Below are positions 4,220 to 48,790 of a DNA stretch of 49,084 nucleotides, piece by piece (within the stretch, counting starts at the first letter, position 1; every line of letters begins with the position of its first letter). A program made the translations under genes and the position numbers. Source of the DNA: a virus (lineage: Duplodnaviria; Heunggongvirae; Uroviricota; Caudoviricetes); the IMG/VR virus record IMGVR_UViG_2851982317_000003. One strand, written 5' to 3'. Under the pieces are notes generated by a model, which had not been told where the DNA came from, ran no database searches, and saw only the letters and a list, made by a program, of their open reading frames with translations.

Positions 4220-4272
4220 CTTTCATTAATCCCTGAATTGTTGGTTAATACGCTTGAGGGTGAATGCGAATA

Positions 4273-4295
4273 ATAAAAAAGGAGCCTGTAGCTCC
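4273..4295 (-). terminator. Candidate intrinsic terminator within the early-left operon
   Basis: Plus-strand AAAAAAGGAGCCTGTAGCTCC reads on the minus strand as a GGAGC/GCTCC hairpin followed by TTTTTT. Confidence 0.4.
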
Positions 4296-4317
4296 ATGAT
4301 GATTTTGTTTTTCATGC

Positions 4318-4533
4318 TCACCGTTCCTTAAAGACGCCGTTTAACATGCCGATCGCCAGGCTTAAATGAGTCGGTGTGAATCCCATCAGCGTTACCGTTT
4401 CGCGGTGCTTCTTCAGTACGCTACGGCAAATGTCATCGACGTTTTTATCCGGAAACTGCTGTCTGGCTTTTTTGATTTCAGAATTAGCCTGACGGGCAAT
4501 GCTGCGAAGGGCGTTTTCCTGCTGAGGTGTCAT
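4318..4533 (-). CDS. Lambda orf61-region small protein (start taken at internal Met MTPQQENAL; ORF extends to 4599)
   Basis: ORF in the lambda orf61 position; start choice uncertain. Confidence 0.6.
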   Translation of the reverse strand: MTPQQENALRSIARQANSEIKKARQQFPDKNVDDICRSVLKKHRETVTLMGFTPTHLSLAIGMLNGVFKER

Positions 4534-4609
4534 TGAACAAGTCCCATGTCGGCAAGCATAAGCACACAGAATATGAAGCCCGCTGCCAGAAAAATGCATT
4601 CAGTGGTTG

Positions 4610-4801
4610 TCATACCTGGTCTCTCTCATCTGCTTCTGCTTTCGCCACCATCATTTCCAGCTTTTGTGAAAGGGATGCGGCTAACGTGTGAAATTCTTCG
4701 TCTGTTTCTACTGGTATTGGCACAAACCTGACTCCAATTTGAGCGAGGCTATGTGCCATCTCGATACTCGTTCTTAACTCAACGGGAGATGCTTTGTGCA
4801 T
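4610..4801 (-). CDS. orf63: Lambda Orf63-like protein
   Basis: 63-aa ORF ([23 protein letters not shown]...) in the lambda orf63 position. Confidence 0.8.
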   Translation of the reverse strand: MHKASPVELRTSIEMAHSLAQIGVRFVPIPVETDEEFHTLAASLSQKLEMMVAKAEADERDQV

Positions 4802-4962
4802 ACAGCTCCCCGTTTATTATTTATCTCCTCAGCCAGCCGCTGTGCTTTCAGGGGATTTCGGATAACAGAAAGGCCGGGAAATACCCAGCCTCGCTTCGTA
4901 ACGGAGTAGACGAAAGTGATCGTGCCTACGCGGATATTATCGTGAGGATGTTTCATCGCCAT
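4774..4962 (-). CDS. orf60a: Lambda Orf60a-like protein
   Basis: 62-aa ORF just upstream of exo on the minus strand. Confidence 0.7.
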
Positions 4963-5633
4963 TGCTCCCCAAATACAAAACCAATTTCAGCCAGTGCCTC
5001 GTCCATTTTTTCGATGAACTCCGGCACCATCTCGTCAAAACTCGCCATGTACTTTTCATCCCGCTCAACCACGACATAATGCAGTCCTTCACGCTTCATA
5101 CGCGGGTCATAGTTGGCAAAGTACCAGGCATCTTTTCGCGTCACCCACATGCTGTACTGCACCTGGGCCATGTAAGCCGACTTTATGGCCTCGAAACCAC
5201 CGAGCCGGAACTTCATGAAATCCCGGGAGGTAAACGGGCATTTCAGCTCAAGGCCATTGCCGTCACTGCATAAACCATCGGGAGAGCAGGCGGTACGCAT
5301 ACTTTCGTCGCGATAGATGATCGGGGATTCAGTAACATTCACGCCGGAAGTGAATTCAAACAGAGTTCTGGCGTCGTTCTCGTACTGTTTTCCCCATGCC
5401 AGCGCCTTAGCATTAACTTCCGGAGCCACACCGGTGCAAACCTCAGCCAGCAGGGTGTGGAAGTAGGACATTTTCATGTCAGGCCACTTTTTTCCGGAGC
5501 GGGGTTTTGCTATCACATTGTGAACTTCTGAAGCGGTGATGACGCCGAGCCGTAATTTGTGCCACGCATCATCCCCCTGTTCGACAGCTCTCACGTCGAT
5601 TCCGGTACGCTGCAGGATAATGTCCGGTGTCAT
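4953..5633 (-). CDS. exo: Lambda exonuclease (Red-alpha)
   Basis: 226-aa ORF ([43 protein letters not shown]...). Confidence 0.97.
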
Positions 5634-6415
5634 GCAGCCACCTTCTGCTCAGTGGCTTTCTGTTTCAGGAATCCAAGAGCTTTCACTGCTTCGGCCTGTG
5701 TCAGTTCTGACGATGCGCGAATGTCGCGGCGAAATATCTGGGAACAGAGCGGCAATAAGTCGTCATCCCATGTTTTATCCAGGGCAATCAGCAGAGTGTT
5801 AATCTCCTGCATGGTTTCATCGTTAACCGGAGTGATGTCGCGTTCCGGCTGACGTTCTGCAGTGTATGCGGTATTTTCGACAATGCGCTCGGCTTCATCC
5901 TTGTCATAGATACCAGCAAATCCGAAGGCGAGACGGGCACACTGAATCATGGCTTTATGCCGTAACATCCGTTTGGGATGCGACTGCCACGGCCCCGTGA
6001 TTTCTCTGCCTTCGCGGGTTTTGAATGGTTCGCGGCGGCATTCATCCATCCACTCGGTAACGCAGATCGGATGATTGCGGTCTTTGCGGTAAATCCGGCA
6101 TGTGCAGGATTCGTTGTCCTGTTCAAAGTCCATGCCGTCAAACTGCTGGTTTTCGTTGATGATGCGGGACCAGCCATCAACGCCCACCACCGGAACGATG
6201 CCGTTCTGCTTATCAGGGAAGGCGTAAATTTCTTTCGTCCACGGATTAAGACCGTACTGGTTGGCGACGATCAGCAATGCGATGAACTGCGCATCGCTGG
6301 CATCACCTTTAAATGCCGTCTGGCGAAGAGTGGTGATCAGTTCCTGTGGGTCGACAGAATCCATGCCGACTCGTTCAGCCAGCTTCCCAGCCAGCGTTGC
6401 GAGTGCTGTACTCAT
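5630..6415 (-). CDS. bet: Bet single-strand annealing protein (Red-beta)
   Basis: 261-aa ORF ([37 protein letters not shown]...); overlaps exo start. Confidence 0.97.
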
Positions 6416-6420
6416 CCGTT

Positions 6421-6717
6421 TTATACCTCTGAATCAATATCAACCTGGTGGTGAGCAATGGTTTCAACCATGTACCGGATGTGTTCTGCCATGCGCTCCT
6501 GAAACTCAACATCGTCATCAAACGCACGGGTAATGGCTTTTTTGCTGGCCCCGTGGCGTTGCAAATGATCGATGCATAGCGATTCAAACAGGTGCTGGGG
6601 CAGGCCTTTTTCCATGTCGTCTGCCAGTTCTGCCTCTTTCTCTTCACGGGCGATCTGCTGGTAGTGACGCACCCAGCTCTGAGCCTCAAGACGATCCTGA
6701 ATGTAATAAGCGTTCAT
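6421..6717 (-). CDS. gam: Gam, RecBCD inhibitor (98-aa GamS-length form)
   Basis: [56 protein letters not shown]... Confidence 0.95.
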
Positions 6718-6792: not shown

Positions 6793-6999
6793 TTAGTGAT
6801 TCAGGCCGTTGCCGCGTCCGTCGAGAAAAACTTCCACGAGCAAGTCACGGGTATAAGTGCGCTCGATGCCGCGATGCAGATAAAGCCGTCCGCGTAAATT
6901 AGCTGATGCAGTCCAGGTACCATCTTTGTGTTTGACCAGCATTCCTGGCATGACCGCACCGCGATTAACGGTCTGCGTTCCGTAATGTTGATGAACCAT
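6793..6999 (-). CDS. kil: Kil-family host cell-division inhibitor (KilR-like), start at internal Met with AGGAG RBS
   Basis: 68-aa reading MVHQHYGTQTVNRGAVMPGMLVKHKDGTWTASANLRGRLYLHRG...VFLDGRG with KilR-like pattern (H..GT...PG..V.H...T..ASAN...LY...VFLGRDG); kil position next to gam. Confidence 0.6.
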   Translation of the reverse strand: MVHQHYGTQTVNRGAVMPGMLVKHKDGTWTASANLRGRLYLHRGIERTYTRDLLVEVFLDGRGNGLNH

Positions 7000-7259
7000 A
7001 AAAACTCCTGCCCGTAAGCTGGGCTGCTGAACATATAAAGACTTCTGCGCGTATTCAGGCGGTGGATGGCCGCCGGTTGTCATAACTAAGCCGCCTCGTT
7101 GAAGCGACTGAGGTATGAAGTGTTGAGTTGATTTCAGCTGGTCACACCGACGTTCACGCGTCCGCTTCACCCCTCGCACTCCCCGGAGCCTGCTGAAATT
7201 CAAGCTGCGGATCTAAGCGGTCATCGCAACGGTGAATCAGGTGATTGCCGTATCGTTGT

Positions 7260-7400
7260 GTTGTTGCGACATGGTGATAATAGCTATTGCTATTGATGAT
7301 ATCAATACTTATTGCTATTGATAGATGTGTTTTGATATTAAATATTTGATAGCAAAAAGAATTAATTTTGTGACTTGCATCGCATAGCGATAACTGAAGC
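7260..7400 (-). promoter_or_regulatory. Candidate OL/pL operator-promoter region (leftward early promoter)
   Basis: AT-rich block with repeated TTGCTATTG / TATTGAT motifs and an ATTGATGATATCAAT inverted repeat; the same words recur in the cI-cro intergenic region. Confidence 0.45.
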
Positions 7401-7444
7401 GGGGTTGTGGTGGTTTTTTGAACGGTGTGTGTGATGAGGGGAGG

Positions 7445-7472
7445 TAAAAGAAAACCCGGCACGGTGGCCGGG
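7445..7472 (-). terminator. Intrinsic terminator downstream of the DUF4411 gene (hairpin CCCGGC-ACGGTG-GCCGGG, U-run on minus strand; plausibly bidirectional)
   Basis: Perfect 6-bp GC stem with T-rich tracts on both sides, immediately after the stop of the 7478-7990 gene. Confidence 0.6.
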
Positions 7473-7477
7473 ACGTT

Positions 7478-7990
7478 TTATTTCAAAGAAAAATTATGAC
7501 TAGCGTATCTTGGAAGAAATTCATATAGTGTTAATGTCTTAACGCCGTGAGAAGCAGCAGCATCCGGGATCATTATTCTTTTTTTAGGTTTGCCACCGGA
7601 TGGTTTCTCATGGGTAATAATAGTATATCCATGTGTCATCGCATGGGCTATTAAAAAAGCATCTGCTTTTTCATGGCTTGCAAAATCAAACTTTGCCTTT
7701 TCGGTAACATCTAATTTAGTTGACCAATTTATTAACTTTGCATAATTTTCTATTGAACTATGCTCATCTTCGAAGAATGATGATGGTAACTCTTCTTTAA
7801 TCCATTTACACAATGGATCATCTTTTGCACATAGTTCTTTTTTTACAGCATTAATGCTATAAATCAGACCATTAATGTGTAAAGCGAGAAGAAAATCCCA
7901 AAATATTTTGCAATAATTGAAGTTATATGCAAAGTTTTTTGCCTCTATGAAGACATTACTATCAATTAAGAATTTTCCATTATGAATCAT
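7478..7990 (-). CDS. DUF4411-family (PIN-like fold) protein; second gene of the cI-proximal accessory cassette
   Basis: 170-aa ORF (MIHNGKFLIDSNVFIEAKNF...); start overlaps the stop of the upstream peptidase gene (ATGA), i.e. translationally coupled. Confidence 0.65.
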   Translation of the reverse strand: MIHNGKFLIDSNVFIEAKNFAYNFNYCKIFWDFLLALHINGLIYSINAVKKELCAKDDPLCKWIKEELPSSFFEDEHSSIENYAKLINWSTKLDVTEKAKFDFASHEKADAFLIAHAMTHGYTIITHEKPSGGKPKKRIMIPDAAASHGVKTLTLYEFLPRYASHNFSLK

Positions 7991-8581
7991 AGAGATTCTC
8001 GTTTTTTATAAAATTCAACAACTGTATCTGCTTTTACATTTAGCAGTACGCCTGCTTCCCTTAATGGTAATTGTTGAGACATTGCTTTGGAAATTATTAT
8101 ATTCGTAAGTTTTGGACTGTTGCGAACAGGTAATGTGTTAAAGAAAGAACCACCATTAGATTCTTTTTTGGGCTTATTGTAAGCTTGATCTTTAATTATC
8201 TCCAAAGTGTTTCTTTCTATCAAATCTAATTGTAACGCTTTGATTGCACAAGCGAAATCACTAACCTTAAATAACTTAGAAACCTCTTTTACTCGATAAT
8301 AATTATTATCGCTGGATGCATTAAGCCAGAAAGATTTGAAGAGATTATCAGGCATTAAGATTTCAGCAGCAACTTTATTACAAAAAGATTCTATGTTTTT
8401 TTCTGTGTCCCACCCAGAGACTCCATCGACTCCAAGCCAAAGATGAGCCACCTCATGAAATAATGTAAATACCTGCGCAGATAACGCGTCCGAGCTATTT
8501 ACAAAAATGATCGGAGCAACGCTATCAGATATACAGAAACCACGAAACTCTCGCGTGTCAAGTTTTCTTTTATTATTATTA

Positions 8582-8590
8582 CCCACAACA
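8582..8590. repeat. IS1 target-site duplication, left copy (CCCACAACA)
   Basis: 9-bp direct repeat abutting the IS1 left terminus. Confidence 0.9.
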
Positions 8591-8645
8591 GGTGATGCTG
8601 CCAACTTACTGATTTAGTGTATGATGGTGTTTTTGAGGTGCTCCA

Positions 8646-8921
8646 GTGGCTTCCATTTCCATCAGATGTCCTTCCTGCTCCGCTACTGAAGGCGTGGTGC
8701 GTAACGGCAAAAGCACTGCCGGACATCAGCGCTATCTCTGCTCTCACTGCCGTAAAACATGGCAACTGCAGTTCACTTACACCGCTTCTCAACCCGGTAC
8801 GCACCAGAAAATCATTGATATGGCCATGAATGGCGTTGGATGCCGGGCAACAGCCCGCATTATGGGCATTGGCCTCAACACGATTTTACGTCACTTAAAA
8901 AACTCAGGCCGCAGTCGGTAA
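8646..8921 (+). CDS. insA: IS1 InsA
   Basis: 91-aa [46 protein letters not shown]... Confidence 0.95.
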
Positions 8922-9343
8922 CCTCGCGCATACAGCCGGGCAGTGACGTCATCGTCTGCGCGGAAATGGACGAACAGTGGGGCTATGTCGGGGCTAAATC
9001 GCGCCAGCGCTGGCTGTTTTACGCGTATGACAGGCTCCGGAAGACGGTTGTTGCGCACGTATTCGGTGAACGCACTATGGCGACGCTGGGGCGTCTTATG
9101 AGCCTGCTGTCACCCTTTGACGTGGTGATATGGATGACGGATGGCTGGCCGCTGTATGAATCCCGCCTGAAGGGAAAGCTGCACGTAATCAGCAAGCGAT
9201 ATACGCAGCGAATTGAGCGGCATAACCTGAATCTGAGGCAGCACCTGGCACGGCTGGGACGGAAGTCGCTGTCGTTCTCAAAATCGGTGGAGCTGCATGA
9301 CAAAGTCATCGGGCATTATCTGAACATAAAACACTATCAATAA
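8840..9343 (+). CDS. insB: IS1 InsB (made as an InsAB' fusion by frameshifting)
   Basis: 167-aa ORF in the -1 frame overlapping insA. Confidence 0.9.
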
Positions 9344-9358
9344 GTTGGAGTCATTACC

Positions 9359-9367
9359 CCCACAACA
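9359..9367. repeat. IS1 target-site duplication, right copy (CCCACAACA)
   Basis: Identical 9-mer abutting the IS1 right terminus. Confidence 0.9.
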
Positions 9368-9934
9368 CCATTCTTGAAAACTAATACGCCAGTGTCTTCT
9401 ATTAGTTTTGCCACTTTAGAAAAATAGCTCTCAAAAGTGACATTTTTTATCTCTTTTTGTATATCAAAATGTATTGTGTTTGCTATGTCTGTAGCAACAA
9501 CCTTATAATTTAATTTTCTATTAAATTTAAATTTACCAATAAAATCGAGTGGATCATCATTACCATTTTCTCTTAAATAGTCTTTGTACCACTCAAGTTT
9601 ATATTCTATATCATAGTAAACATCAAAAAAATCTTTTCCTAACTCACGGCTATTTATAGCTTGCCTTAAGTCAGGGATCTTGGGTTTGGCTGGAGTTGGT
9701 GGCGTTTCAAGAAATAAAAAACCGAAAGGGATTCCTCCAATTTTTGCCAGTTTTTCTGCTGCGGATTTACTTACCACTCCGTTAAGAAATTTATTAATCT
9801 TTTTGGGCATGACTTGGTCAGCAAGAGTTTCGATAGAAACTCCTTGAGAATTTGCTATCCAATCAATCATCTTCCTAGACAATTGAAATTCAACCGCTGC
9901 CATGTTATCACCTAGTTAAAAAAACCTATTATTC

Positions 9935-9998
9935 AACAATTATTGTTGTGCACCTGATAGCTAACGTCAAGCCTAATTTATTGCCTTACTACAGTAAG
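9935..9998. promoter_or_regulatory. Two inverted repeats in the promoter-proximal gap between cI and the peptidase gene: CAACAATTATTGTTG (9935-9949) and CTTACTACAGTAAG (9985-9998)
   Basis: Perfect 7-1-7 and 6-2-6 palindromes in the 129-bp intergenic region; candidate operator sites. Confidence 0.35.
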
Positions 9999-10032
9999 CT
10001 GAAAAGCGAAGTGCATAATTTTGTTCTGATTT

Positions 10033-10761
10033 CTACCCATGCTTTCTATATGTCTGCGGCATGCTCCCGATGACTTTCCCGAAGATGAACACGCGGTTCA
10101 TCTCGTCTTTCTCGATCGGGTCCCACGGTGAGTAGCTCTTGTTATCAGAGATAACCAGCAGCTTATCCTTCATCATTTGCAGGCGTTTTACATGGGCGGT
10201 GTCGTCATACAGAAACGCATAGATACCATCACCGTCGAAAGATTTAACCGTGATATCAACGAACAGCAGATCACCTGGTTCGATCGTTCCTGACATGCTG
10301 TCACCACGCACGTTAATGATGCGGATATTTTCCGCCTTCCTGCCATCGAACATGTGACGAGCATCGTCAAACGAGTATTCAACCGAGCGTAGAACTTCTA
10401 CAAACTCACGGTTGATTACACCCGGCCCGGCACTGACTTCTATATCAAGAACGTCAATTTTGAAGTATTTGGAATGGCTGATAGCAGGCTTCCCTGATTG
10501 TTGACCGTCATTTCTCATCGGGCCTATGCCTGAAGAGAGCCATTCTGTTCGAACACCCAATGCATTAGCTATTTCAACAATTTTTGTTGAGCCGCGCGCG
10601 TTGCCGCTTGTCAGTCTCCAGATTGTGGGTTGAGCTACGCCAGACGCCTTTGCAAGAGCGCCTTGAGACATTCCAGATTGTTCCATCGCTAGATTTAAGC
10701 GATCAGCAAGAGTTTCTTTTTTCATAAGTTTTAATTTATACGCTTGCGTATTGATGGTCAA
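10033..10761 (-). CDS. cI: CI-type prophage repressor (N-terminal HTH + C-terminal LexA-like S24 self-cleaving domain); true start probably the internal Met MKKETLAD
   Basis: HTH (QGALAKASGVAQPTIWRL) and S24 motif (VRGDSMSGTIEPGDLLFVD...VKRL); divergent from the cro-like gene. Confidence 0.85.
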   Translation of the reverse strand: MTINTQAYKLKLMKKETLADRLNLAMEQSGMSQGALAKASGVAQPTIWRLTSGNARGSTKIVEIANALGVRTEWLSSGIGPMRNDGQQSGKPAISHSKYFKIDVLDIEVSAGPGVINREFVEVLRSVEYSFDDARHMFDGRKAENIRIINVRGDSMSGTIEPGDLLFVDITVKSFDGDGIYAFLYDDTAHVKRLQMMKDKLLVISDNKSYSPWDPIEKDEMNRVFIFGKVIGSMPQTYRKHG

Positions 10762-10829
10762 AACACGTTTTGCTATTGCTTGGATTAATACGCATTGCTA
10801 TTATTCATTCATTGCAATACCAATAGGAA
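10735..10829. promoter_or_regulatory. OR / pRM-pR divergent operator-promoter region
   Basis: Intergenic region between divergent cI and cro-like genes; palindrome ATACGCTTGCGTAT (10738-10751) and TTGCTATTG motifs. Confidence 0.55.
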
Positions 10830-11063
10830 TTGATAATGACAAATCAAACCATTCAACTCGCAATCAGTATTACAGGTAGTCAAAAACGACTGGCAGATCT
10901 ATGCGGTGTAGCCCAACCCACAGTTTGGCGTTGGCTACACGGTGGCGGAATTGATGCCCGCTATGTAATGAAAATTGTCTCAGCCACTGGTGGAAAGATT
11001 AAACCAGCAGATATTCGTCCCGACCTCGCACCATTGTTTAACGCGAGTAATTCTGCCGCCTAA
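10830..11063 (+). CDS. Cro-like / YdaS-like HTH regulator
   Basis: 77-aa HTH protein (QKRLADLCGVAQPTVWRWL) divergent from cI. Confidence 0.7.
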   Translation: MIMTNQTIQLAISITGSQKRLADLCGVAQPTVWRWLHGGGIDARYVMKIVSATGGKIKPADIRPDLAPLFNASNSAA

Positions 11064-11087
11064 ACTGCGGCGTTAACTGATAAGGCA

Positions 11088-11633
11088 ATGACTATGCAAC
11101 CACTTACATACCAACAGACTAGCGGATTTAGCCCGACTGCGGTGATAAATCGTTCTCAAACAAAACAGGTGCCAGGCCACGAAAAAATCCGTGATGCCGT
11201 CCGCGCCTGGTCGGCTGCAGATAATCAGGATGTTGTTGCCGCACTCATTGTGAATGAGTATCGGGAGCAGGGCGGCGGCACCATCGATTTCCCTGATGAT
11301 GTCAGCCGTGCACGCCAGAAGCTGTTCCGCTTCCTCGATAACAAATTCGATTCTGAAAAATACCGAAATAACGTGCGTGAACTGACCCCGGCAATTCTGG
11401 CGGTACTACCGCTGGAATATCGCGGTTACCTGGTTGAGCAGGATAGCTTCATGACTCGGTTGGCTGAAATGGAAAAGGAACTCAGTGAGGCAAAACAGGC
11501 TGTCATTCTCAACGCACCACGCCACCAGAAACTGAAGGAGATGAGTGAAGGTATTGTGTCGATGTTTCGTGTGGACCCGGATCTGGCTGGTCCATTGATG
11601 GCGATGGTTACCACCATGTTGGGGGCAATATGA
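11088..11633 (+). CDS. YdaT-like protein in the cII position
   Basis: 181-aa ORF with YdaT-like motifs (EYREQGGGTIDFP, LTPAILAVLPLEYR). Confidence 0.6.
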   Translation: MTMQPLTYQQTSGFSPTAVINRSQTKQVPGHEKIRDAVRAWSAADNQDVVAALIVNEYREQGGGTIDFPDDVSRARQKLFRFLDNKFDSEKYRNNVRELTPAILAVLPLEYRGYLVEQDSFMTRLAEMEKELSEAKQAVILNAPRHQKLKEMSEGIVSMFRVDPDLAGPLMAMVTTMLGAI

Positions 11634-12649: not shown

Positions 12650-13347
12650 AAAACATCGCCGCACAGATGATTAACTTTGACCGTGAGCAGATGCGCCGGA
12701 TCGCCAACAACATGCCGGAACAGTACGACGAAAAGCCGCAGGTACAGCAGGTAGCGCAGATCATCAACGGTGTATTCAGCCAGTTGCTGGCAACTTTCCC
12801 TGCGAGCCTGGCTAACCGTGACCAGAACGAACTGAACGAAATTCGCCGCCAGTGGGTTCTGGCTTTCCGGGAAAACGGGATCACCACAATGGAACAGGTT
12901 AACGCTGGAATGCGCGTAGCCCGTCGGCAGAATCGACCATTCCTGCCATCACCCGGGCAGTTTGTCGCCTGGTGCCGGGAAGAAGCATCCGTTACCGCCG
13001 GGCTGCCAAACGCCAGCGAGCTGGTTGATATGGTTTACGAGTATTGCCGGAAGCGCGGGCTGTATCCGGATGCAGAGTCTTATCCGTGGAAATCAAACGC
13101 GCACTACTGGCTGGTTACCAACCTGTATCAGAACATGCGGGCCAATGCGTTGACTGACTCGGAATTACGGCGCAAGGCTGCCGATGAACTTGCCCATATG
13201 ACTGCGAGAATTAACCGTGGTGAGGCTATACCTGAACCAGTAAAACAACTTCCTGTCATGGGCGGTAGACCTCTAAATCGTGCACAGGCTCTGACGAAGA
13301 TTGCAGAAATCAAAGCTAAGTTCGGACTGAAAGGAGCCAGTGTATGA
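12646..13347 (+). CDS. P: Replication protein P (DnaB helicase loader)
   Basis: 233-aa reading from MKNIAAQMINFDREQMRRIANNMPEQYDEKPQVQQ..., lambda P-like. Confidence 0.95.
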   Translation: MKNIAAQMINFDREQMRRIANNMPEQYDEKPQVQQVAQIINGVFSQLLATFPASLANRDQNELNEIRRQWVLAFRENGITTMEQVNAGMRVARRQNRPFLPSPGQFVAWCREEASVTAGLPNASELVDMVYEYCRKRGLYPDAESYPWKSNAHYWLVTNLYQNMRANALTDSELRRKAADELAHMTARINRGEAIPEPVKQLPVMGGRPLNRAQALTKIAEIKAKFGLKGASV

Positions 13348-13637
13348 CGGGAAAAGAAGCAATTATTCATTACCTGGGGACGCATAAGAGCTTCTGTGCG
13401 CAGGACGTTGCTGCGGTAACAGGCGCAACAGTAACCAGCATAAATCAGGCTGCGGCTAAAATGGCGCGGACAGGAATCTTAGTTATTGATGGTAAGGTCT
13501 GGCGAACGGTGTATTACCGGTTCGCTACCAAGGAAGAACGGGAAGGAAAGGTGAGCACGAATCTGATTTTCAAGGAGTGTCGCCAGAGTGCCGCGATGAA
13601 GCGGGTGTTGGCATTTTATCGCGGCAATTTTCAATAG
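13344..13637 (+). CDS. ren: Ren
   Basis: 97-aa ORF overlapping the P stop (ATGA); lambda Ren-like. Confidence 0.9.
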   Translation: MTGKEAIIHYLGTHKSFCAQDVAAVTGATVTSINQAAAKMARTGILVIDGKVWRTVYYRFATKEEREGKVSTNLIFKECRQSAAMKRVLAFYRGNFQ

Positions 13638-13674
13638 ACTATGTACATAAAAATATCATTTTTTTAATACATGT

Positions 13675-13881
13675 CTAATTATTGGACGAAATTGGTTTTT
13701 GCTTTGGTTTAGTTAGCCTAGCAATCAAGCCAGAGGCAATAATGATGATCCAAGCAATTTGATGCAATGCTACTCCAATATAAGAACCTTTATAGATAAT
13801 AAAGGCATAGATCGCTAGAAACGAAATAAATATCCATAACGAAAGTTGATAAATTTTGGCGCGCATATTTAATCCAATCAA
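13675..13881 (-). CDS. Small hydrophobic two-TM membrane protein (hypothetical)
   Basis: 68-aa ORF in an AT-rich tract; two hydrophobic segments. Confidence 0.35.
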   Translation of the reverse strand: MIGLNMRAKIYQLSLWIFISFLAIYAFIIYKGSYIGVALHQIAWIIIIASGLIARLTKPKQKPISSNN

Positions 13882-14122
13882 TCAGAAAGACGAGTAATCA
13901 TAGAGGTACTATCACCCGGGTAACTATTGCTATTATGAACGGATAGGATAGAGGCTTCAATAACATATGCATCAAGTATGATGGAATATGTAGATGAAAA
14001 TGACTTGTGTCAAATTTGTGGAAATGAGTACCATGTTTCTCTGAAATTGATGTCGTTAATGGCTAGTGATAGTGAACTTTTTTACTTTATAATTCCTTTG
14101 GTTATAACAATAAGGTAAATTT

Positions 14123-15778: not shown

Positions 15779-15948
15779 TGGCTACACCGCTTATTCGTGT
15801 CATGAACGGACACATCTACAGAGTACCAAATCGTCGTAAGCGTAAGCCTGAGCTGAAGCCATCCGAAATACCAACACTGCTCGGATATACCGCTAGCCTG
15901 GTTGATAAAAAATGGTTGCGACTGGCAGCAAGGAGGAATCATGGCTGA
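15778..15948 (+). CDS. ninE: NinE-like small protein (56 aa), not in the supplied ORF track
   Basis: ATG overlapping the ybcN stop (TAATG); [37 protein letters not shown]... Confidence 0.6.
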   Translation: MATPLIRVMNGHIYRVPNRRKRKPELKPSEIPTLLGYTASLVDKKWLRLAARRNHG

Positions 15949-16231
15949 TTTGAGAAAAGCAGCGCGTGGTCGGGAATGCCAGGTAAGAATCACTGGCGTA
16001 TGTAATGGCAACCCTGAAACGTCTGTACTGGCACATATCCGGCTGGCTGGATTGTGCGGCACCGGTATTAAACCGCCAGACCTTATTGCCACCATTGCCT
16101 GTTCTGCCTGTCACGACGAAATCGACCGCCGCACGCATTTTGTCGATGCTGAGTACGCAAAAGAATGCGCGCTGGAAGGTATGGCGAGAACGCAGGTTAT
16201 CTGGCTGAAAGAGGGGGTAATCAAGGCGTGA
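15941..16231 (+). CDS. ybcO: YbcO-like (DUF1364) nin-region protein; start taken at [10 protein letters not shown]
   Basis: Cys/His-rich protein ([11 protein letters not shown]...[11 protein letters not shown]) as in DLP12 ybcO. Confidence 0.8.
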
Positions 16232-16590
16232 ATACTTACCACATCACACTACCCTGGCCTCCGAGCAATAACCGCTATTACCGCCATAATCGCGGGCGCA
16301 CACACATCAGCGCAGAAGGGCAGGCATACCGCGATAACGTCACCCGAATCATTAAAAACGCAATGCTGGATATCGGCCTGGCTATGCCAGTGAAAATCCG
16401 TATTGAGTGCCACATGCCGGATCGCCGTCGCCGTGACCTGGATAATCTGCAAAAGGCCGCTTTTGACGCACTCACCAAAGCAGGTTTCTGGCTGGATGAT
16501 GCTCAGGTCGTTGATTACCGCGTTGTGAAGATGCCTGTTACCAAAGGTGGGAGGCTGGAACTGACCATCACCAAAATGGGGAATGAATGA
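16228..16590 (+). CDS. rusA: RusA Holliday-junction resolvase (GTG start overlapping the ybcO stop)
   Basis: 120-aa reading [37 protein letters not shown]... Confidence 0.9.
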
Positions 16591-16727
16591 TGTTTGAGTC
16601 TTATATGGCAGAGCGTCTTCGCCGCCGCTGGGTGCGCCTGCGCTTATATCGTTTTCCTGGTTCTGTTTTGACCGATTACCGGATACTGAAGAATTACGCC
16701 AAAACCCTGACAGGAGCAGGAGTATGA
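16587..16727 (+). CDS. ylcG: YlcG-like small protein (46 aa), not in the supplied ORF track
   Basis: ATGATG start overlapping the rusA stop; [25 protein letters not shown]... Confidence 0.5.
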
Positions 16728-16812
16728 AGTCAGAGATAACAATCAACTAATACTATTTTGTTGATTTTTGCTTGTAATTGGCGTTCTGGTCTGATTTTTG
16801 TGGAGTAAGTTG

Positions 16813-17196
16813 ATGCGTGATATTCAGATGGTTCTTGAGCGTTGGGGAGCGTGGGCGGCTAATAATCATGAAGATGTGACCTGGTCGTCCATTGCCGCCG
16901 GTTTTAAGGGATTAATTACTTCAAAAGTAAAATCTCGCCCGCAATGTTGTGACGATGACGCGATGATCATTTGCGGGTGCATGGCCCGTCTGAAAAAGAA
17001 CAACAGCGATTTGCACGATTTATTAGTAGATTATTATGTAGTCGGTATGACATTCATGTCACTGGCAGGTAAGCATTGCTGCTCTGATGGTTATATCGGG
17101 AAAAGGTTACAGAAGGCTGAGGGTATAATTGAAGGGATGTTAATGGCATTAGATATCCGGTTAGAGATGGATATCGTTGTTAATAACTCTAATTAA
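16813..17196 (+). CDS. quuD: Late-gene antiterminator Q (DLP12 QuuD / phage-21-82 type)
   Basis: 127-aa reading [33 protein letters not shown]...[16 protein letters not shown]. Confidence 0.85.
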
Positions 17197-17385: not shown

Positions 17386-18468
17386 TTAGAACTGATACAC
17401 CAGACCTACAGCGACGATGTCGTCGGTATCAATACCAGCTGTTTTGGTAAACTTACTATCGTCAATTAAGTTGATTTTGTAATCAACAAAAGTGGACATG
17501 TTTTTATTAAAGTAGTAAGTAGCACCGACATCGACATACTTGACTAAGTCTCGGTCACCATGAACACCAAGGTCTTTACCTTTTGACTGAAGGTAAGCAA
17601 CAGATGGTCGCAGACCGAAGTCAAACTGATATTGTGCTACTGCTTCAAAGTTTTGTGCTTTGTTTGCAATATGGTTATTACCAAAAACGGTCATATTCTG
17701 AGTTTCAGAATATGTGGTAGCCAGATAGATATTGTTCGCATCATATTTCAGGCCTGCAGCCCATACTTCCGCATTTTTGCCGGAGGCATTGAATTTGCTC
17801 TTACCATAGGCGACCTGACCGTCAGTGCGATCTGATTTAGCATAGGTTGCACCCACGCCGAATCCTTCATACTCATAAGTAGTGGAGAAACCGAAACCAT
17901 CACCATTGGCTTCAGTTACGTCAGTGCGGTCATTTTTACCCTGATACTGAGCAGCAAAGTTCAGGCCATCGACCAGACCAAAGAAGTCGTTGTTACGATA
18001 GGTTGCAACACCAGTGGTGCGACCAGTCATGAACACATCTGTTTGGGTCCAGGTATCGCCACCGAATTCTGGCAGAACGTCAGTCCACGCACCGATGTCG
18101 TATGCTACACCGTAGTTACGGCCGTAATCGATTGAGCCGTAGTCACCGAATTTCAGGCCTGCAAATGCAAGACGGGTTTTGTCTTTGGAGGAACCTTGAG
18201 ATTCAGCGCGGTTGCCTTTGAATTCATATTCCCACTGACCGAAACCAGTCAGTTGATCGTTGATTTGGGTTTCACCTTTGAAGCCAAGACGGGCATAAGT
18301 AGTATCACCATCATCTGCATCATTAGAGGAGAAGTAGTGCTTAGCATTAACTTTCCCGTACAGATCCAGCTTGTTACTGTCTTTATTATAAATTTCAGCT
18401 GCCTGAGCAGACATCGCCATCAGTACTGATGCAGCTACAGCAGAAATTGCCACTGTTAATTTTTTCAT
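17386..18468 (-). CDS. nmpC: OmpC-family trimeric porin, phage-borne (Lc / NmpC-like lysogenic-conversion gene)
   Basis: 360-aa ORF with signal peptide ([23 protein letters not shown]), AEIYNKD...C-terminal VYQF; between Q and holin in opposite orientation. Confidence 0.9.
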
Positions 18469-21748: not shown

Positions 21749-22426
21749 ATGTCCATCATTTTTAATGGACACTATCGTATGAAACACCGGACCTGGATCA
21801 CTGAAGCTTTACGTCTTCACTTTGAAGAACATTTACCCCGGGTTGTGGCCGGGCGTCGCCTGGGTGTACCAAAATCAACAGTTTGTAGTATGTTCGTGCG
21901 CTTTCGGAGAGCTGGCCTTTCGTGGCCTTTGCCCGCAGGCATGTCGGAGCAGGAACTTGATGCCTGCCTTTACGGACAATTTTCCACGGTACCAGTCGTA
22001 CGTCCTGAAAGCACCGTTATATCCGAAGCCCCCGTGGTAAAAAAACGTCCCCGGCGGCCCAACTTCCCTTATGAGTTTAAAATCGCCTTAGTGGAGCAGT
22101 CACTGCAGCCCGGAGCCTGTGTGGCGCAGATCGCCCGGGAAAACGGAATCAACGATAACCTGCTCTTCAACTGGCGCCATCAATACCGGAAAGGTGGCCT
22201 GCTGCCTTCCGGAAAAAATATGCCGGCACTGCTTCCCGTGACGTTAACGCCGGAGCCGGATAATAAAATCCCGGCCCCCGCACAGGAACCAGAGCAGATA
22301 AATACACCGTCCGACAGTCTGTGTTGTGAGCTGGTTCTGCCGGCCGGAACTCTCAGGCTTAAAGGTAAACTGACGCCGGCGTTATTACAGACACTTATCC
22401 GCGAAATAAAAGGGAGCAGCCACTGA
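21749..22426 (+). CDS. IS66-family accessory protein TnpA (orfA); start uncertain
   Basis: Contains the PRRPNFPYEFKIALVEQSLQPGACVAQIARENGINDNLLFNWRHQYRKG motif. Confidence 0.7.
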   Translation: MSIIFNGHYRMKHRTWITEALRLHFEEHLPRVVAGRRLGVPKSTVCSMFVRFRRAGLSWPLPAGMSEQELDACLYGQFSTVPVVRPESTVISEAPVVKKRPRRPNFPYEFKIALVEQSLQPGACVAQIARENGINDNLLFNWRHQYRKGGLLPSGKNMPALLPVTLTPEPDNKIPAPAQEPEQINTPSDSLCCELVLPAGTLRLKGKLTPALLQTLIREIKGSSH

Positions 22427-22773
22427 TGATATCTCTCCCTGCAGGTTCGCGTATCTGGCTGGTTGCAGGTATCACCGATATGCGAAATGGCTTTAACGGC
22501 CTGGCATCAAAAGTTCAGAACGTCCTGAAGGATGACCCGTTCTCCGGACACCTGTTCATCTTCCGCGGACGCCGGGGTGACCAGATAAAAGTGTTGTGGG
22601 CTGACAGTGACGGACTGTGCCTCTTCACCAAACGCCTGGAGCGGGGCCGCTTCGTCTGGCCAGTCACCCGTGACGGCAAGGTGCACCTTACTCCGGCTCA
22701 GTTATCCATGCTTCTTGAAGGTATCAACTGGAAGCACCCGAAACGAACGGAACGCGCTGGAATCCGCATATAA
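22426..22773 (+). CDS. IS66-family TnpB (orfB)
   Basis: 115-aa ORF MISLPAGSRIWLVAGITDMRNGFNGLASKV..., start overlapping the orfA stop. Confidence 0.85.
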   Translation: MISLPAGSRIWLVAGITDMRNGFNGLASKVQNVLKDDPFSGHLFIFRGRRGDQIKVLWADSDGLCLFTKRLERGRFVWPVTRDGKVHLTPAQLSMLLEGINWKHPKRTERAGIRI

Positions 22774-22792
22774 CCCGTTGTAAAGTGAGGAT

Positions 22793-24364
22793 ATGGACAC
22801 CTCACTTGCTCATGAGAACGCCCGCCTGCGGGCACTGTTGCAGACGCAACAGGACACCATCCGCCAGATGGCTGAATACAACCGCCTGCTCTCACAGCGG
22901 GTGGCGGCTTATGCTTCCGAAATCAACCGGCTGAAGGCGCTGGTTGCGAAACTGCAACGTATGCAGTTCGGTAAAAGCTCAGAAAAACTTCGTGCAAAAA
23001 CCGAACGGCAGATACAGGAAGCACAGGAGCGAATCAGCGCACTTCAGGAAGAAATGGCGGAAACGCTGGGTGAGCAATATGACCCGGTACTGCCATCCGC
23101 CCTGCGCCAGTCTTCAGCCCGTAAACCGTTACCGGCCTCACTTCCCCGTGAAACCCGGGTTATCCGGCCGGAAGAGGAATGCTGTCCTGCCTGTGGTGGT
23201 GAACTCAGTTCTCTGGGATGTGATGTGTCAGAGCAACTGGAGCTTATCAGCAGCGCCTTTAAGGTTATTGAAACACAACGTCCGAAACAGGCCTGTTGCC
23301 GGTGCGACCATATCGTGCAGGCACCAGTACCTTCAAAACCCATTGCACGCAGTTATGCCGGAGCGGGGCTTCTGGCCCATGTTGTCACCGGGAAATATGC
23401 AGACCATCTGCCGTTATACCGCCAGTCAGAAATATACCGTCGTCAGGGAGTGGAGCTGAGCCGTGCCACACTGGGGCGCTGGACAGGTGCTGTTGCTGAA
23501 CTGCTGGAGCCGCTGTATGACGTCCTGCGCCAGTATGTGCTGATGCCCGGTAAAGTCCATGCTGATGATATCCCCGTCCCGGTCCAGGAGCCGGGCAGCG
23601 GTAAAACCCGGACAGCCCGGCTGTGGGTCTACGTCCGTGATGACCGTAACGCCGGTTCACAGATGCCCCCGGCGGTCTGGTTCGCGTACAGTCCGGACCG
23701 GAAAGGTATCCATCCACAAAATCACCTGGCCGGTTACAGCGGTGTGCTTCAGGCCGATGCTTACGGTGGTTACCGGGCGTTATACGAATCCGGCAGAATA
23801 ACGGAAGCCGCGTGTATGGCTCATGCCCGGAGAAAAATCCACGATGTGCATGCAAGAGCGCCCACCTACATCACCACGGAAGCCCTGCAGCGTATCGGTG
23901 AACTGTATGCCATCGAGGCAGAGGTCCGGGGCTGTTCAGCAGAACAGCGTCTGGCGGCAAGAAAAGCCAGAGCCGCGCCACTGATGCAGTCACTGTATGA
24001 CTGGATACAGCAACAGATGAAAACACTGTCGCGTCACTCAGATACGGCAAAAGCGTTCGCATACCTGCTGAAACAGTGGGATGCACTGAACGTGTACTGC
24101 AGTAATGGCTGGGTGGAAATCGACAACAACATCGCAGAGAACGCCTTACGGGGAGTGGCCGTAGGCCGGAAAAACTGGATGTTCGCGGGTTCCGACAGCG
24201 GTGGTGAACATGCGGCGGTGTTGTACTCGCTGATCGGCACATGCCGTCTGAACAATGTGGAGCCAGAAAAGTGGCTGCGTTACGTCATTGAACATATCCA
24301 GGACTGGCCGGCAAACCGGGTACGCGATCTGTTGCCCTGGAAAGTTGATCTGAGCTCTCAGTAA
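22793..24364 (+). CDS. IS66-family transposase TnpC (leucine zipper, zinc finger, DDE domain)
   Basis: 523-aa ORF with CPACGG...CxxC zinc-finger and DDE region. Confidence 0.9.
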
Positions 24365-26443: not shown

Positions 26444-30124
<3,681 letters not shown>

Positions 30125-30144
<20 letters not shown>

Positions 30145-48075: not shown

Positions 48076-48780
48076 ATGGCTACATCGACAGTAATTCCGG
48101 GAGACATCACCACGCTGAAGGGAGATGTCAGTAAAGCGAAGGAAGATATTTCCTCAATTAACGGTAAAGTATCAACGCTTCAGACTGATATGACCAGTGC
48201 AAAGCAGGATATCAGCTCCAGATACACAAAAACTGAAGTTGATAATAAGCTGAAAAACAAAGTGGAAGTGAACGATCTGGAAAGTGGTCGTTATGGCGGA
48301 GATTTTTATCCACTGACAGGTCGTGAAGCGTTTTATTTATGGAGTTTGGCCACGACTACAGCGGCGGCAAACCTTTATCTTAATCCTGACCCTGCAATTT
48401 CGTCTGTACTGCGGTCAACATCGTCTATCCGCTATAAACATTCAGTAGAGACGATAGATTAAGAGCACGCCGATCTCATTTTCAGGATGCGCCCTGTATG
48501 GTACAGGTCACAATGCGAAAATGACAGGCGTGACTGGGGATTCTACGGATTGATTGCCGAGGAAGTAGGAGAAATTGCCCCTCAGTTTGTACACTGGCGA
48601 TCAGCTAACGAAGATGATGCACCGGAAGCTATTTCCAGCAATGGCCTTGTTGCCGAAGGTGTAATGTACGAACGTCTGGTTGTTCCACTGATTCACCATA
48701 TCCAGAAACTGACTGAAAGAGTTGATGAACTTGAGTCAGAATTGAAGTTGTTATCAACTTCCCGAAGCGATATCGGATAA
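48076..48780 (+). pseudogene. Tail-fibre-like protein with C-terminal intramolecular-chaperone (peptidase S74-like) domain, interrupted by an in-frame TAA at 48460-48462
   Basis: Track ORFs 48076-48462 and 48487-48780 share a frame; the stop falls inside the recognisable motif (SSIRYKHSVETID-stop-...GFYGLIAEEVGEIAPQFV...YERLVVPLIHHIQKL). Confidence 0.5.
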
Positions 48781-48790
48781 AGGAGGAGTA

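What the first reader, a model, noticed from the sequence alone, without database searches (positions are those of the whole stretch)
8582..9367. IS1 insertion with a perfect 9-bp target duplication splits the peptidase gene
IS1 (768 bp, canonical termini, insA/insB) is flanked by CCCACAACA on both sides. Removing IS1 plus one duplication copy (777 bp, a multiple of 3) rejoins the N- and C-terminal peptidase fragments in frame, showing a single simple transposition into an intact gene. The DUF4411 partner is left intact but uncoupled from its upstream gene, which may matter if the peptidase acts as an antitoxin or sensor.
Basis: seen in the sequence. Interest (0 to 1): 0.5.

Follow-up and report, generated by a model that had tools for sequence, protein, structure and literature searches.

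The report
IS1 insertion splitting a prophage peptidase gene

Summary
IS1 occupies 8591-9358 (768 bp). It has 23-bp imperfect terminal repeats, insA/insB' on the + strand and an A6C frameshift site. It is flanked by CCCACAACA at 8582-8590 and 9359-9367. Deleting 777 bp restores a 379-aa minus-strand ORF, identical in protein to the intact gene of E. coli strain 203740.

The window is E. coli E2528-C1, a defective lambdoid prophage at ybhC. Of 5,426 complete E. coli genomes, 32 carry the locus, 31 of them uninterrupted. Only E2528-C1 has this junction, and its chromosome holds at least 40 IS1 matches.

The broken gene encodes an HTH + ImmA/IrrE (M78) metallopeptidase. It overlaps the intact DUF4411 (PIN-like) gene downstream by 4 bp. 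The pair is conserved across Proteobacteria and is homologous to a solved complex (PDB 9vzy). It resembles RosmerTA, sits in the prophage immunity region where lambda has rexAB, and has only about 30% GC.

One correction: IS1's transposase genes face away from DUF4411, so read-through from the IS1 promoter runs towards cI. Only a candidate hybrid promoter at the IS1 left end points at DUF4411.

Verdict: a real, recent, ordinary insertion. Low interest.

The parts
8582..8590 (.). Left copy of the 9-bp target-site duplication, CCCACAACA
   Evidence: A single copy is present at the empty site of strain 203740.
8591..9358 (+). IS1 element, 768 bp. Left terminal repeat 8591-8613, right terminal repeat 9336-9358 (18/23 match)
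   Evidence: It is 97.7% identical to the IS1B copy in the sister strain's O gene.
8646..8921 (+). insA (91 aa: zinc ribbon + HTH)
   Evidence: Pfam PF03811 (2.6e-20) and PF12759 (5.3e-31).
8840..9343 (+). insB' frame (DDE transposase). It is fused to insA by a -1 frameshift at AAAAAAC, 8897-8903
   Evidence: Pfam PF03400 (2.3e-78). NCBIfam transpos_IS1. PGAP annotates a programmed frameshift. The motif was read.
9359..9367 (.). Right copy of the 9-bp target-site duplication, CCCACAACA
9337..9903 (-). N-terminal fragment of the HTH-ImmA/IrrE gene: native residues 1-182 (HTH, helical domain, first strand of the M78 fold), then 6 IS1-encoded residues (VMTPTY) and a stop. PGAP calls it 'hypothetical protein'
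   Evidence: Domain boundaries come from the AF2 model.
7987..8590 (-). C-terminal fragment of the same gene (residues about 180-379). It holds the HEVAH zinc motif and a C-terminal helical domain, and has lost its promoter and native start. PGAP extends it to a TTG at 8604 inside IS1
7478..7990 (-). Intact DUF4411 (PIN-like) gene, 170 aa, with a 4-bp ATGA overlap onto the peptidase stop codon. This is the presumed toxin/effector
   Evidence: Pfam PF14367 (1.2e-37). Protein WP_000581650.1 is identical in the IS1-free strain. Acidic residues D10, E52, D110 and E128 are invariant. It hits PDB 9vzy_D.
7455..7472 (-). Intrinsic-terminator-like hairpin plus T-run, 6 bases after the DUF4411 stop codon; the end of the module
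9942..9970 (-). Native promoter-like site of the module, TTGACG-17-AACAAT. It overlaps the palindrome CAACAATTATTGTTG (9934-9948)
   Evidence: The same TTGACG-17-AACAAT lies upstream of the Klebsiella homologue.
8575..8604 (-). Candidate hybrid promoter made by the insertion: -35 TTGGCA inside the IS1 left terminal repeat (8604-8599), an 18-nt spacer, and -10 AATAAT in the target gene (8580-8575). It points at the C-terminal fragment and DUF4411
   Evidence: 10 of 12 matches. This is only a consensus match: 13 sites were found in the region against 9.5 +/- 3.1 in shuffles. IS1 fusion promoters are documented (PMC9330008, citing Prentki 1986).
10033..10761 (-). Context: the cI-like prophage repressor (HTH + S24 peptidase), 130 bp upstream of the module. 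PGAP start is at 10725

Best explanation
A resident IS1 copy transposed once into codons 180-182 of a 379-aa gene and made the usual 9-bp target duplication. E2528-C1 carries at least 40 IS1 matches on its chromosome.

The gene encodes an N-terminal HTH, a helical domain and an ImmA/IrrE (M78) zinc peptidase. It is the first gene of a self-contained two-gene module whose second gene is a DUF4411 PIN-like nuclease. The module is a low-GC cargo cassette inside the immunity region of a lambdoid prophage, between OL and the cI-like repressor, where lambda carries rexAB.

By homology and architecture it is a RosmerTA-like toxin-antitoxin or abortive-infection module. In that reading the HTH-peptidase is the autoregulating antitoxin or sensor, and it binds and restrains the PIN-like effector.

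The insertion cuts the peptidase fold in two. That should abolish the full-length protein. Because IS1 is polar, it should also largely silence DUF4411, which would explain why the cell tolerates losing the presumed antitoxin.

The event is recent and strain-specific. It is one more step in the decay of an already defective prophage.

Shown here: the insertion, the duplication, in-frame restoration, the empty sites, domain identities, conservation of the gene pair, and homology to the 9vzy complex.

Inferred: the toxin/antitoxin roles, anti-phage function, polarity, and the consequences for the cell.
For: Insertion anatomy and empty site.

Uniqueness: 32 of 5,426 genomes have the locus and 31 are uninterrupted. 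Only one genome has the junction, and E2528-C1 reaches the 40-place limit for IS1.

Recency: the restored protein is 379/379 identical to the sister strain's. There is one synonymous SNP in 10.8 kb, and the DUF4411 protein accession is the same in both strains.

Domains: Peptidase_M78 at 51.4 bits (cut-off 22) and DUF4411 at 129.6 bits (cut-off 23.5). H224, E225 and H228 are invariant in 28 homologues, and the insertion falls in the conserved FKNGVV.NN motif. The AF2 model has pLDDT 86, the break lies between strands 174-178 and 184-188, and the best fold match is CapP, 7t5t.

Module conservation: the M78 gene is followed by a DUF4411 gene in a Klebsiella Rac-like prophage (again just downstream of the repressor), in Delftia and in a Pasteurella island.

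Physical interaction in a homologue: the family profile hits 9vzy_A at 9.6e-22 over positions 10-333, and DUF4411 hits 9vzy_D at 7e-6; both chains come from one entry.

Rosmer-like: weak RmrA hits. A delta-rmrA mutant could not be transformed (Millman preprint). ImmA antitoxin nodes pair with PIN-like toxins (PMC10440598). DUF4411.1 is predicted to be a toxin partnered with HTH + DUF955 (PMC5499597).

Setting: 30-31% GC against about 52% in the flanks. OL and OR share a 49-nt similarity at 7271 and 10754 that brackets the module. A terminator follows DUF4411, and a native promoter is conserved with Klebsiella.

Prophage decay: portal and tail-fibre pseudogenes and an ISCro1 insertion.
Against: No experiment on this module exists in the material I could reach. 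No paper was found for 9vzy, and DUF4411 matches no PADLOC toxin model.

Polarity is assumed from classical IS1 genetics and was not measured. A hybrid promoter-like site at the left end of IS1 could instead keep DUF4411 transcribed. If so, survival of the strain would need another explanation: the N-terminal fragment still neutralises, or DUF4411 is harmless without activation.

With a single occurrence, selection and drift cannot be told apart.
Confidence: 0.85

Rival explanations
1. The insertion is not a plain knockout but rewires expression. The -35 TTGGCA in the IS1 left terminal repeat and the -10 AATAAT in the target form a hybrid promoter. This promoter transcribes DUF4411 free of the HTH-peptidase's autoregulation. 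Cells survive because the 188-aa N-terminal fragment still binds DUF4411, or because DUF4411 needs the peptidase to be activated.
For: A promoter-like site with 10 of 12 matches and an 18-nt spacer lies at 8604-8575 on the minus strand. IS1 fusion promoters are documented (PMC9330008). DUF4411 is intact, with its invariant acidic residues. The N-terminal fragment keeps the HTH and the helical domain.
Against: Promoter-like sites in this AT-rich region are no more frequent than in shuffles (13 against 9.5 +/- 3.1). There are no expression data. DUF4411's ribosome-binding site is weak, and the gene normally overlaps the upstream ORF by 4 bp, which suggests translational coupling that such a transcript would not restore.
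Confidence: 0.12
2. The peptidase is not an antitoxin. It is an ImmA-type anti-repressor of the prophage, cleaving the prophage repressor for induction, so the IS1 insertion mainly locks the prophage in lysogeny.
For: ImmA of ICEBs1 and IrrE/CapP cleave HTH repressors (PMC10440598; fold match to CapP). The gene lies next to the repressor gene.
Against: The neighbouring repressor has its own S24 self-cleavage domain. The M78 gene carries its own fused HTH. It always travels with DUF4411, including outside prophage immunity regions in Delftia and Pasteurella. A homologous pair crystallises as a complex.
Confidence: 0.03
3. The IS1 is an assembly artefact or part of a larger IS1-mediated rearrangement, not a simple insertion.
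For: The genome holds at least 40 IS1 matches, a setting in which assemblers can misplace repeats.
Against: An exact 9-bp duplication at the exact IS ends, flanks collinear with 31 empty-site genomes, and only one SNP in 10.8 kb against the sister strain. A rearrangement or a misjoin would not leave a target duplication with both flanks contiguous.
Confidence: 0.01

Closest known systems
IS1 (IS1 family; IS1A/IS1B-type elements of E. coli)
   Same: 768 bp, about 23-bp imperfect terminal repeats, insA + insB' with an A6C -1 frameshift, a 9-bp target duplication, and an AT-rich target. Annotated as IS1 in RefSeq.
   Different: Nothing of substance. It is 97.7% identical to the IS1B copy in the sister strain, so it is another isoform. 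The exact isoform was not assigned.
RosmerTA (RmrA Zn-peptidase antitoxin + RmrT toxin; Millman et al. 2022)
   Same: A two-gene module whose larger protein is an HTH + ImmA/IrrE-type zinc peptidase. It is carried on mobile elements. Weak PADLOC RmrA hits, some spanning nearly the full length.
   Different: The partner is a DUF4411 PIN-like protein that matches no PADLOC RmrT model. The RmrA scores are low (17-30 bits). Neither toxicity nor phage defence has been tested for this pair.
HTH-DUF955(COG2856) + DUF4411.1 predicted toxin-antitoxin modules (Matelska et al. 2017); PDB 9vzy complex
   Same: Same domain pair, same gene order (peptidase first, DUF4411 downstream) and the same length class. 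The family profile matches 9vzy_A at E 9.6e-22, and DUF4411 matches 9vzy_D.
   Different: Only about 25-30% sequence similarity to the crystallised pair. I found no publication describing its function.
Lambda rexA-rexB (lysogen-expressed exclusion genes between cI and OL/PL)
   Same: Same position in the immunity region: downstream of the repressor gene, same strand, ending before OL. Low-GC cargo cassette.
   Different: No sequence or fold relationship. This module has its own conserved promoter. Exclusion activity is untested.
CapP/CapH, ImmA/ImmR and IrrE/DdrO protease-repressor switches
   Same: M78 metallopeptidase fold (best solved fold match is CapP, 7t5t) and association with an HTH DNA-binding domain.
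   Different: Here the HTH is fused to the peptidase, and the partner is a PIN-like nuclease rather than a separate repressor controlling a larger operon.

Membership tests
IS1 insertion sequence | Length about 768 bp with about 23-bp imperfect terminal inverted repeats (GGTGATG... / GGTAATG...) | tested here: met
   768 bp; repeats match at 18 of 23. The left-end sequence is unique in the window, 0 expected.
IS1 insertion sequence | insA and insB' ORFs joined by a -1 frameshift at A6C, giving the InsAB' transposase | tested here: met
   Pfam InsA domains and DDE_Tnp_IS1. NCBIfam transpos_IS1. AAAAAAC at 8897-8903. PGAP 'programmed frameshift'.
IS1 insertion sequence | 9-bp direct target duplication, and an empty site in related genomes | tested here: met
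   CCCACAACA twice. A single copy in strain 203740. 31 uninterrupted genomes.
ImmA/IrrE (Peptidase_M78, COG2856) metallopeptidases | Match to PF06114 above the gathering score, with the HExxH zinc motif | tested here: met
   51.4 bits against a cut-off of 22. HEVAH at 224-228, with H224, E225 and H228 invariant in 28 homologues.
ImmA/IrrE (Peptidase_M78, COG2856) metallopeptidases | Site-specific proteolysis of an HTH repressor or partner protein | not testable with these tools
   Needs biochemistry.
RosmerTA defence system | RmrA: a Zn-peptidase antitoxin recognised by the system's models | tested here: inconclusive
   12 PADLOC RmrA models hit, but weakly (E 6e-8 to 8e-4, 17-30 bits). CapP scores higher, 9.8e-15.
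RosmerTA defence system | RmrT: a toxin recognised by the system's models | tested here: not met
   The DUF4411 protein has no PADLOC hit at E <= 0.01. RmrT toxins are known to be diverse (PMC10440598).
RosmerTA defence system | Toxicity neutralised by the partner, and protection against phage | not testable with these tools
   Needs expression and plaque assays.
DUF4411 (PIN-like; cluster DUF4411.1 of Matelska 2017) | Match to PF14367, conserved acidic active-site residues, and a position downstream of an HTH-DUF955 fusion gene | tested here: met
   129.6 bits against a cut-off of 23.5. D10, E52, D110 and E128 invariant. The gene order holds in the window and in loci L004-L009.
HTH-M78 : DUF4411 complex (PDB 9vzy) | Both proteins homologous to the two chains of the entry | tested here: met
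   Profile A2 against 9vzy_A: E 9.6e-22 over positions 10-333 of the profile and 4-345 of the chain. DUF4411 against 9vzy_D: 7.3e-6.
HTH-M78 : DUF4411 complex (PDB 9vzy) | Physical complex between the two E. coli proteins | not testable with these tools
   Only single-chain prediction is available. The fold library predates the entry.
Lysogen-expressed cargo in the rexAB position | Located between the repressor gene and OL/PL, on the repressor's strand | tested here: met
   The repressor is at 10033-10761(-), the module at 7478-9903(-), and the OL/OR similarity at 7271-7319 and 10754-10802. The slot is the same in the Klebsiella Rac-like prophage. Expression in lysogens was not tested.

The most novel reading that the evidence does not exclude
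The IS1 insertion is a natural separation-of-function allele. It removes the M78 peptidase half of the presumed antitoxin, leaves the PIN-like DUF4411 gene intact, and possibly drives that gene from an IS1/target hybrid promoter. If DUF4411 is expressed in E2528-C1, there are two possibilities. Either the HTH + helical N-terminal fragment (1-182) is sufficient to neutralise it, or DUF4411 is inert until the peptidase activates it. The second case would make the peptidase an activator or sensor rather than an antitoxin, and would revise the RosmerTA-like model for this family.
Probability: 0.1. Interest if true: 0.4.

Novelty: already known. Interest (0 to 1): 0.12.

Why it matters
It matters little beyond annotation. 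The insertion is one IS1 hop in a genome with at least 40 IS1 matches, inside a prophage that already has a broken portal gene and another IS.

There are two small practical points.

1. RefSeq lists the two halves as separate, apparently intact CDSs ('hypothetical protein' and 'ImmA/IrrE family metallo-endopeptidase'). They should be one pseudogene.

2. The strain is a ready-made natural mutant of an uncharacterised E. coli HTH-ImmA/DUF4411 module, and near-isogenic strains such as 203740 carry the intact allele. Anyone studying this family could compare them to ask whether the peptidase half is needed to restrain the PIN-like partner.

Tried and rejected
Rfam scan of the whole window at gathering threshold: no match, so there is no known RNA element at or near the site.

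Megablast of the restored locus against 50,697 phage records: no match. A tblastn search with DUF4411 found only one distant hit, 27% identity, in an unannotated faecal phage contig. The module is therefore not documented in a sequenced, free-living phage.

Contig look-up for the Pseudomonas homologue P0099: not on record.

Foldseek against the PDB copy (entries to April 2026) did not contain 9vzy, so the complex interface could not be mapped. Only CapP (7t5t) came up.

Literature searches for 9VZY/9VZZ returned irrelevant papers. A search for ImmA + PIN structural work returned nothing on this pair.

Inverted-repeat search for a conserved operator upstream of homologues in Klebsiella, Delftia and Pasteurella: nothing shared. 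The palindrome at 9934-9948 is not conserved in Klebsiella, although the promoter hexamers are.

Anti-repressor reading of the peptidase: rejected. The repressor has its own S24 domain, and the M78-DUF4411 pair also occurs outside prophage immunity regions.

Read-through from the IS1 transposase promoter into DUF4411: rejected on orientation.

Full report
**1. The observation**

I read 7000-11500 and listed the ORFs, then checked the claims by script.
- CCCACAACA lies at 8582-8590 and at 9359-9367. The repeat cannot be extended by a base on either side. These are the only + strand copies in the window.
- The 768 bp between them begin GGTGATGCTGCCAACTTACTGAT and end with the reverse complement of GGTAATGACTCCAACTTATTGAT (18 of 23 matched). 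The left end occurs once in the window against 0 expected.
- The + strand carries insA at 8646-8921 (InsA zinc ribbon 2.6e-20, InsA HTH 5.3e-31). It also carries the insB' frame at 8840-9343 (DDE_Tnp_IS1 2.3e-78). The AAAAAAC frameshift motif is at 8897-8903.
- Deleting 777 bp yields a single 379-aa ORF on the minus strand.

**2. Independent empty sites**

The restored 1.8-kb locus was searched against 5,426 complete E. coli genomes.
- 32 genomes have it, all at 99.7% identity or more, and all on chromosomes.
- 31 align as one uninterrupted piece, with both genes annotated intact.
- One, strain E2528-C1 (NZ_CP035870.1), aligns at 100% in two pieces spanning 2,577 bp. This is the window's source: locus L001 is identical to the window at offset 1550.

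Strain 203740 has the same prophage at the same site, with a single CCCACAACA at the junction. With IS1 removed, the window differs from it at one base in 10.8 kb (8122, synonymous). The restored protein is 379/379 identical to its WP_000741702.1. The DUF4411 protein has the same accession in both strains.

A query of IS1 plus 150-bp flanks found this junction in only 1 of 5,426 genomes.

So this is a recent, strain-specific hop in an IS1-rich genome, with no decay since the insertion.

**3. What was hit**

The window is a lambdoid prophage at ybhC, the lambda attachment region. Its gene order is int, xis, exo, bet, gam, kil, then the immunity region, then O/P-like replication genes, Q, lysis, head and tail. 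The prophage is already defective: the portal gene has an internal stop, there is a tail-fibre pseudogene, and an IS66-family ISCro1 has inserted.

The interrupted gene lies 130 bp downstream of the cI-like repressor (HTH + S24; 10033-10761, minus strand), on the same strand. It is followed, with a 4-bp ATGA overlap, by a 170-aa DUF4411 gene (7478-7990; PF14367, 1.2e-37). A terminator-like hairpin at 7472-7455 comes next.

A 49-nt similarity between 7271-7319 and 10754-10802 marks the OL and OR operator regions that bracket the module. The module therefore sits where lambda has rexAB. Its GC content is 30-31%, against about 52% in the flanks, as expected of acquired cargo.

**4. The protein**

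- Pfam gives Peptidase_M78 / IrrE-like (51.4 bits, residues 169-291).
- A database search found 461 homologues of very uniform length (about 379 aa) in Enterobacterales, Pasteurellaceae, Neisseriaceae, Burkholderiales and Pseudomonas.
- In a 28-sequence alignment H224, E225, H228 (HEVAH), E246 and C249 are invariant. The insertion point falls inside the conserved FKNGVV.NN..R.L...EFRGF block.
- An AlphaFold model (pLDDT 86, pTM 0.77) shows an N-terminal HTH-like helical bundle (about 1-64) and a helical domain (90-170). The peptidase sheet and HExxH helix follow (174-231), and then a helical C-terminal region.
- IS1 cuts between strands 174-178 and 184-188. The catalytic fold is split.
- The N-terminal product would be residues 1-182 plus VMTPTY. 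The C-terminal part has lost its promoter and start codon.
- The best solved fold match in the available library is the CBASS protease CapP, 7t5t.

**5. The module**

The M78 gene is followed by a DUF4411 gene in every neighbourhood examined:
- four Klebsiella Rac-like prophage loci, again just downstream of the prophage repressor;
- Delftia;
- a Pasteurella integrative island.

DUF4411 keeps its invariant acidic residues D10, E52, D110 and E128. Both proteins have PHROG families: phrog_2439 matches full length, and phrog_11126 matches DUF4411.

The PDB holds an entry, 9vzy, with an 'HTH cro/C1-type domain-containing protein' (393 aa) and a 'DUF4411 family protein' (162 aa) in one crystal. The family profile matches the first chain at E 9.6e-22 over nearly its whole length. 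The window's DUF4411 matches the second chain at 7e-6. I take this as evidence that homologous pairs form a complex. I found no paper describing it.

The literature places the pair among predicted three-domain toxin-antitoxin systems: HTH + DUF955 protease + PIN-like DUF4411.1 (PMC5499597). It also places it in the 'ImmA/Rosmer' zone of the NetFlax network, where ImmA-type antitoxins pair with PIN-like toxins (PMC10440598).

In RosmerTA the delta-rmrA mutant could not be obtained, presumably because of toxicity (Millman preprint). rmrA is also essential in Tn-seq of Pectobacteriaceae.

PADLOC gives only weak RmrA hits (17-30 bits), a better CapP hit, and nothing for DUF4411. I therefore call the module RosmerTA-like in architecture, not a demonstrated member.

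**6. Consequences of the insertion (inference)**

The module has its own promoter-like site, TTGACG-17-AACAAT at 9970-9942. The same hexamers and spacing lie upstream of the Klebsiella homologue, which is 53% identical in protein. The N-terminal fragment is therefore probably still made.

Transcription continuing towards DUF4411 must cross 768 bp of IS1 in antisense. IS1 is classically polar in both orientations (my own knowledge of the gal/lac literature, not tested here). My favoured reading is that DUF4411 is largely silenced, which explains why loss of the presumed antitoxin is tolerated.

The transposase genes and the IS1 left-end promoter (seen as CTGCCA-16-TATGAT at 8598-8625, + strand) point the other way, towards the N-terminal fragment and cI.

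The only IS1-derived candidate facing DUF4411 is a hybrid site: -35 TTGGCA in the left terminal repeat, 18 nt, and -10 AATAAT in the target (8604-8575, minus strand). IS1 fusion promoters are documented (PMC9330008, citing Prentki et al. 1986). But promoter-like matches in this AT-rich stretch are no more common than in shuffles, so this is a lead, not a finding.

**7. Rivals**

- An ImmA-type anti-repressor role for the prophage is unlikely. The repressor has its own S24 domain, the peptidase has its own HTH, and the pair also occurs outside prophages.
- An assembly artefact or a larger rearrangement is contradicted by the exact target duplication and the collinear flanks.
- Selection and drift cannot be distinguished from one occurrence.

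**8. Verdict**

The finding is real and its interpretation is essentially right, but it is an ordinary event: a known IS, a textbook 9-bp duplication, and a strain-specific knockout in a decaying prophage. The disrupted module belongs to a family that has been predicted as a toxin-antitoxin system since 2017 and now has a solved complex.

The residual interest is as a natural mutant for testing whether the peptidase half is needed to restrain the PIN-like partner. There is also a minor annotation correction, since RefSeq lists the two halves as separate intact CDSs.

Noticed in passing
window 9934-9948 and 10575-10589: The palindrome CAACAA-N3-TTGTTG occurs exactly twice in the 49-kb window (0.01 expected). 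One copy overlaps the -10 of the peptidase module's promoter. The other lies 641 bp away, inside the HTH-coding part of the cI-like repressor gene. These may be a pair of operators for the module's HTH domain, or the match may be chance within coding sequence. The palindrome is not conserved upstream of the Klebsiella homologue.
   Followed up: partly
window 7000-7470: No N-like antiterminator gene is annotated or evident between kil (6793-6999) and the immunity region. About 480 bp is non-coding and holds OL-like operator repeats (TTGCTATTG motifs, 7271-7319, 73% similar to 10754-10802). Rfam finds nothing there. How early leftward antitermination works in this prophage is unclear.
   Followed up: no
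window about 21749-24364 (L003 24721-27336): A complete IS66-family element (ISCro1: tnpA, tnpB, transposase) is inserted between the lysis/KilA-N region and the terminase genes of the same prophage.
   Followed up: no
window about 28543-30144 (portal) and about 48077-48781 (tail fibre): RefSeq marks the portal gene and a tail-fibre gene as pseudogenes with internal stops. The prophage is therefore very probably unable to make particles, independently of the IS1 event.
   Followed up: no
window 17386-18468: An ompC-like porin gene sits between the Q antiterminator and the lysis genes of the prophage. This is a typical lysogenic-conversion cargo position.
   Followed up: no
L002 (strain 203740) 13241-13938 and 15859-17021: The sister strain's copy of the same prophage keeps the peptidase gene intact. 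It has a different IS1 (IS1B type, 97.7% identical) in the replication O gene and an IS3 further on. The same prophage is being eroded independently by IS elements in different strains.
   Followed up: partly
window 7987-8604 and 9337-9903 (RefSeq EW999_RS08505, EW999_RS08495): PGAP annotates the two halves of the split gene as separate, unflagged CDSs. One of them uses a TTG start that lies inside the IS1 terminal repeat. They should be a single pseudogene.
   Followed up: yes
L004-L007 (Klebsiella), about 4243-6649: In Klebsiella Rac-like prophages the homologous M78-DUF4411 pair occupies the same slot just downstream of the prophage repressor (HTH_3, 155 aa), after a 32-aa YoaK-like ORF. 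This suggests that the post-repressor slot is a recurrent docking site for this cassette in unrelated prophage types.
   Followed up: partly
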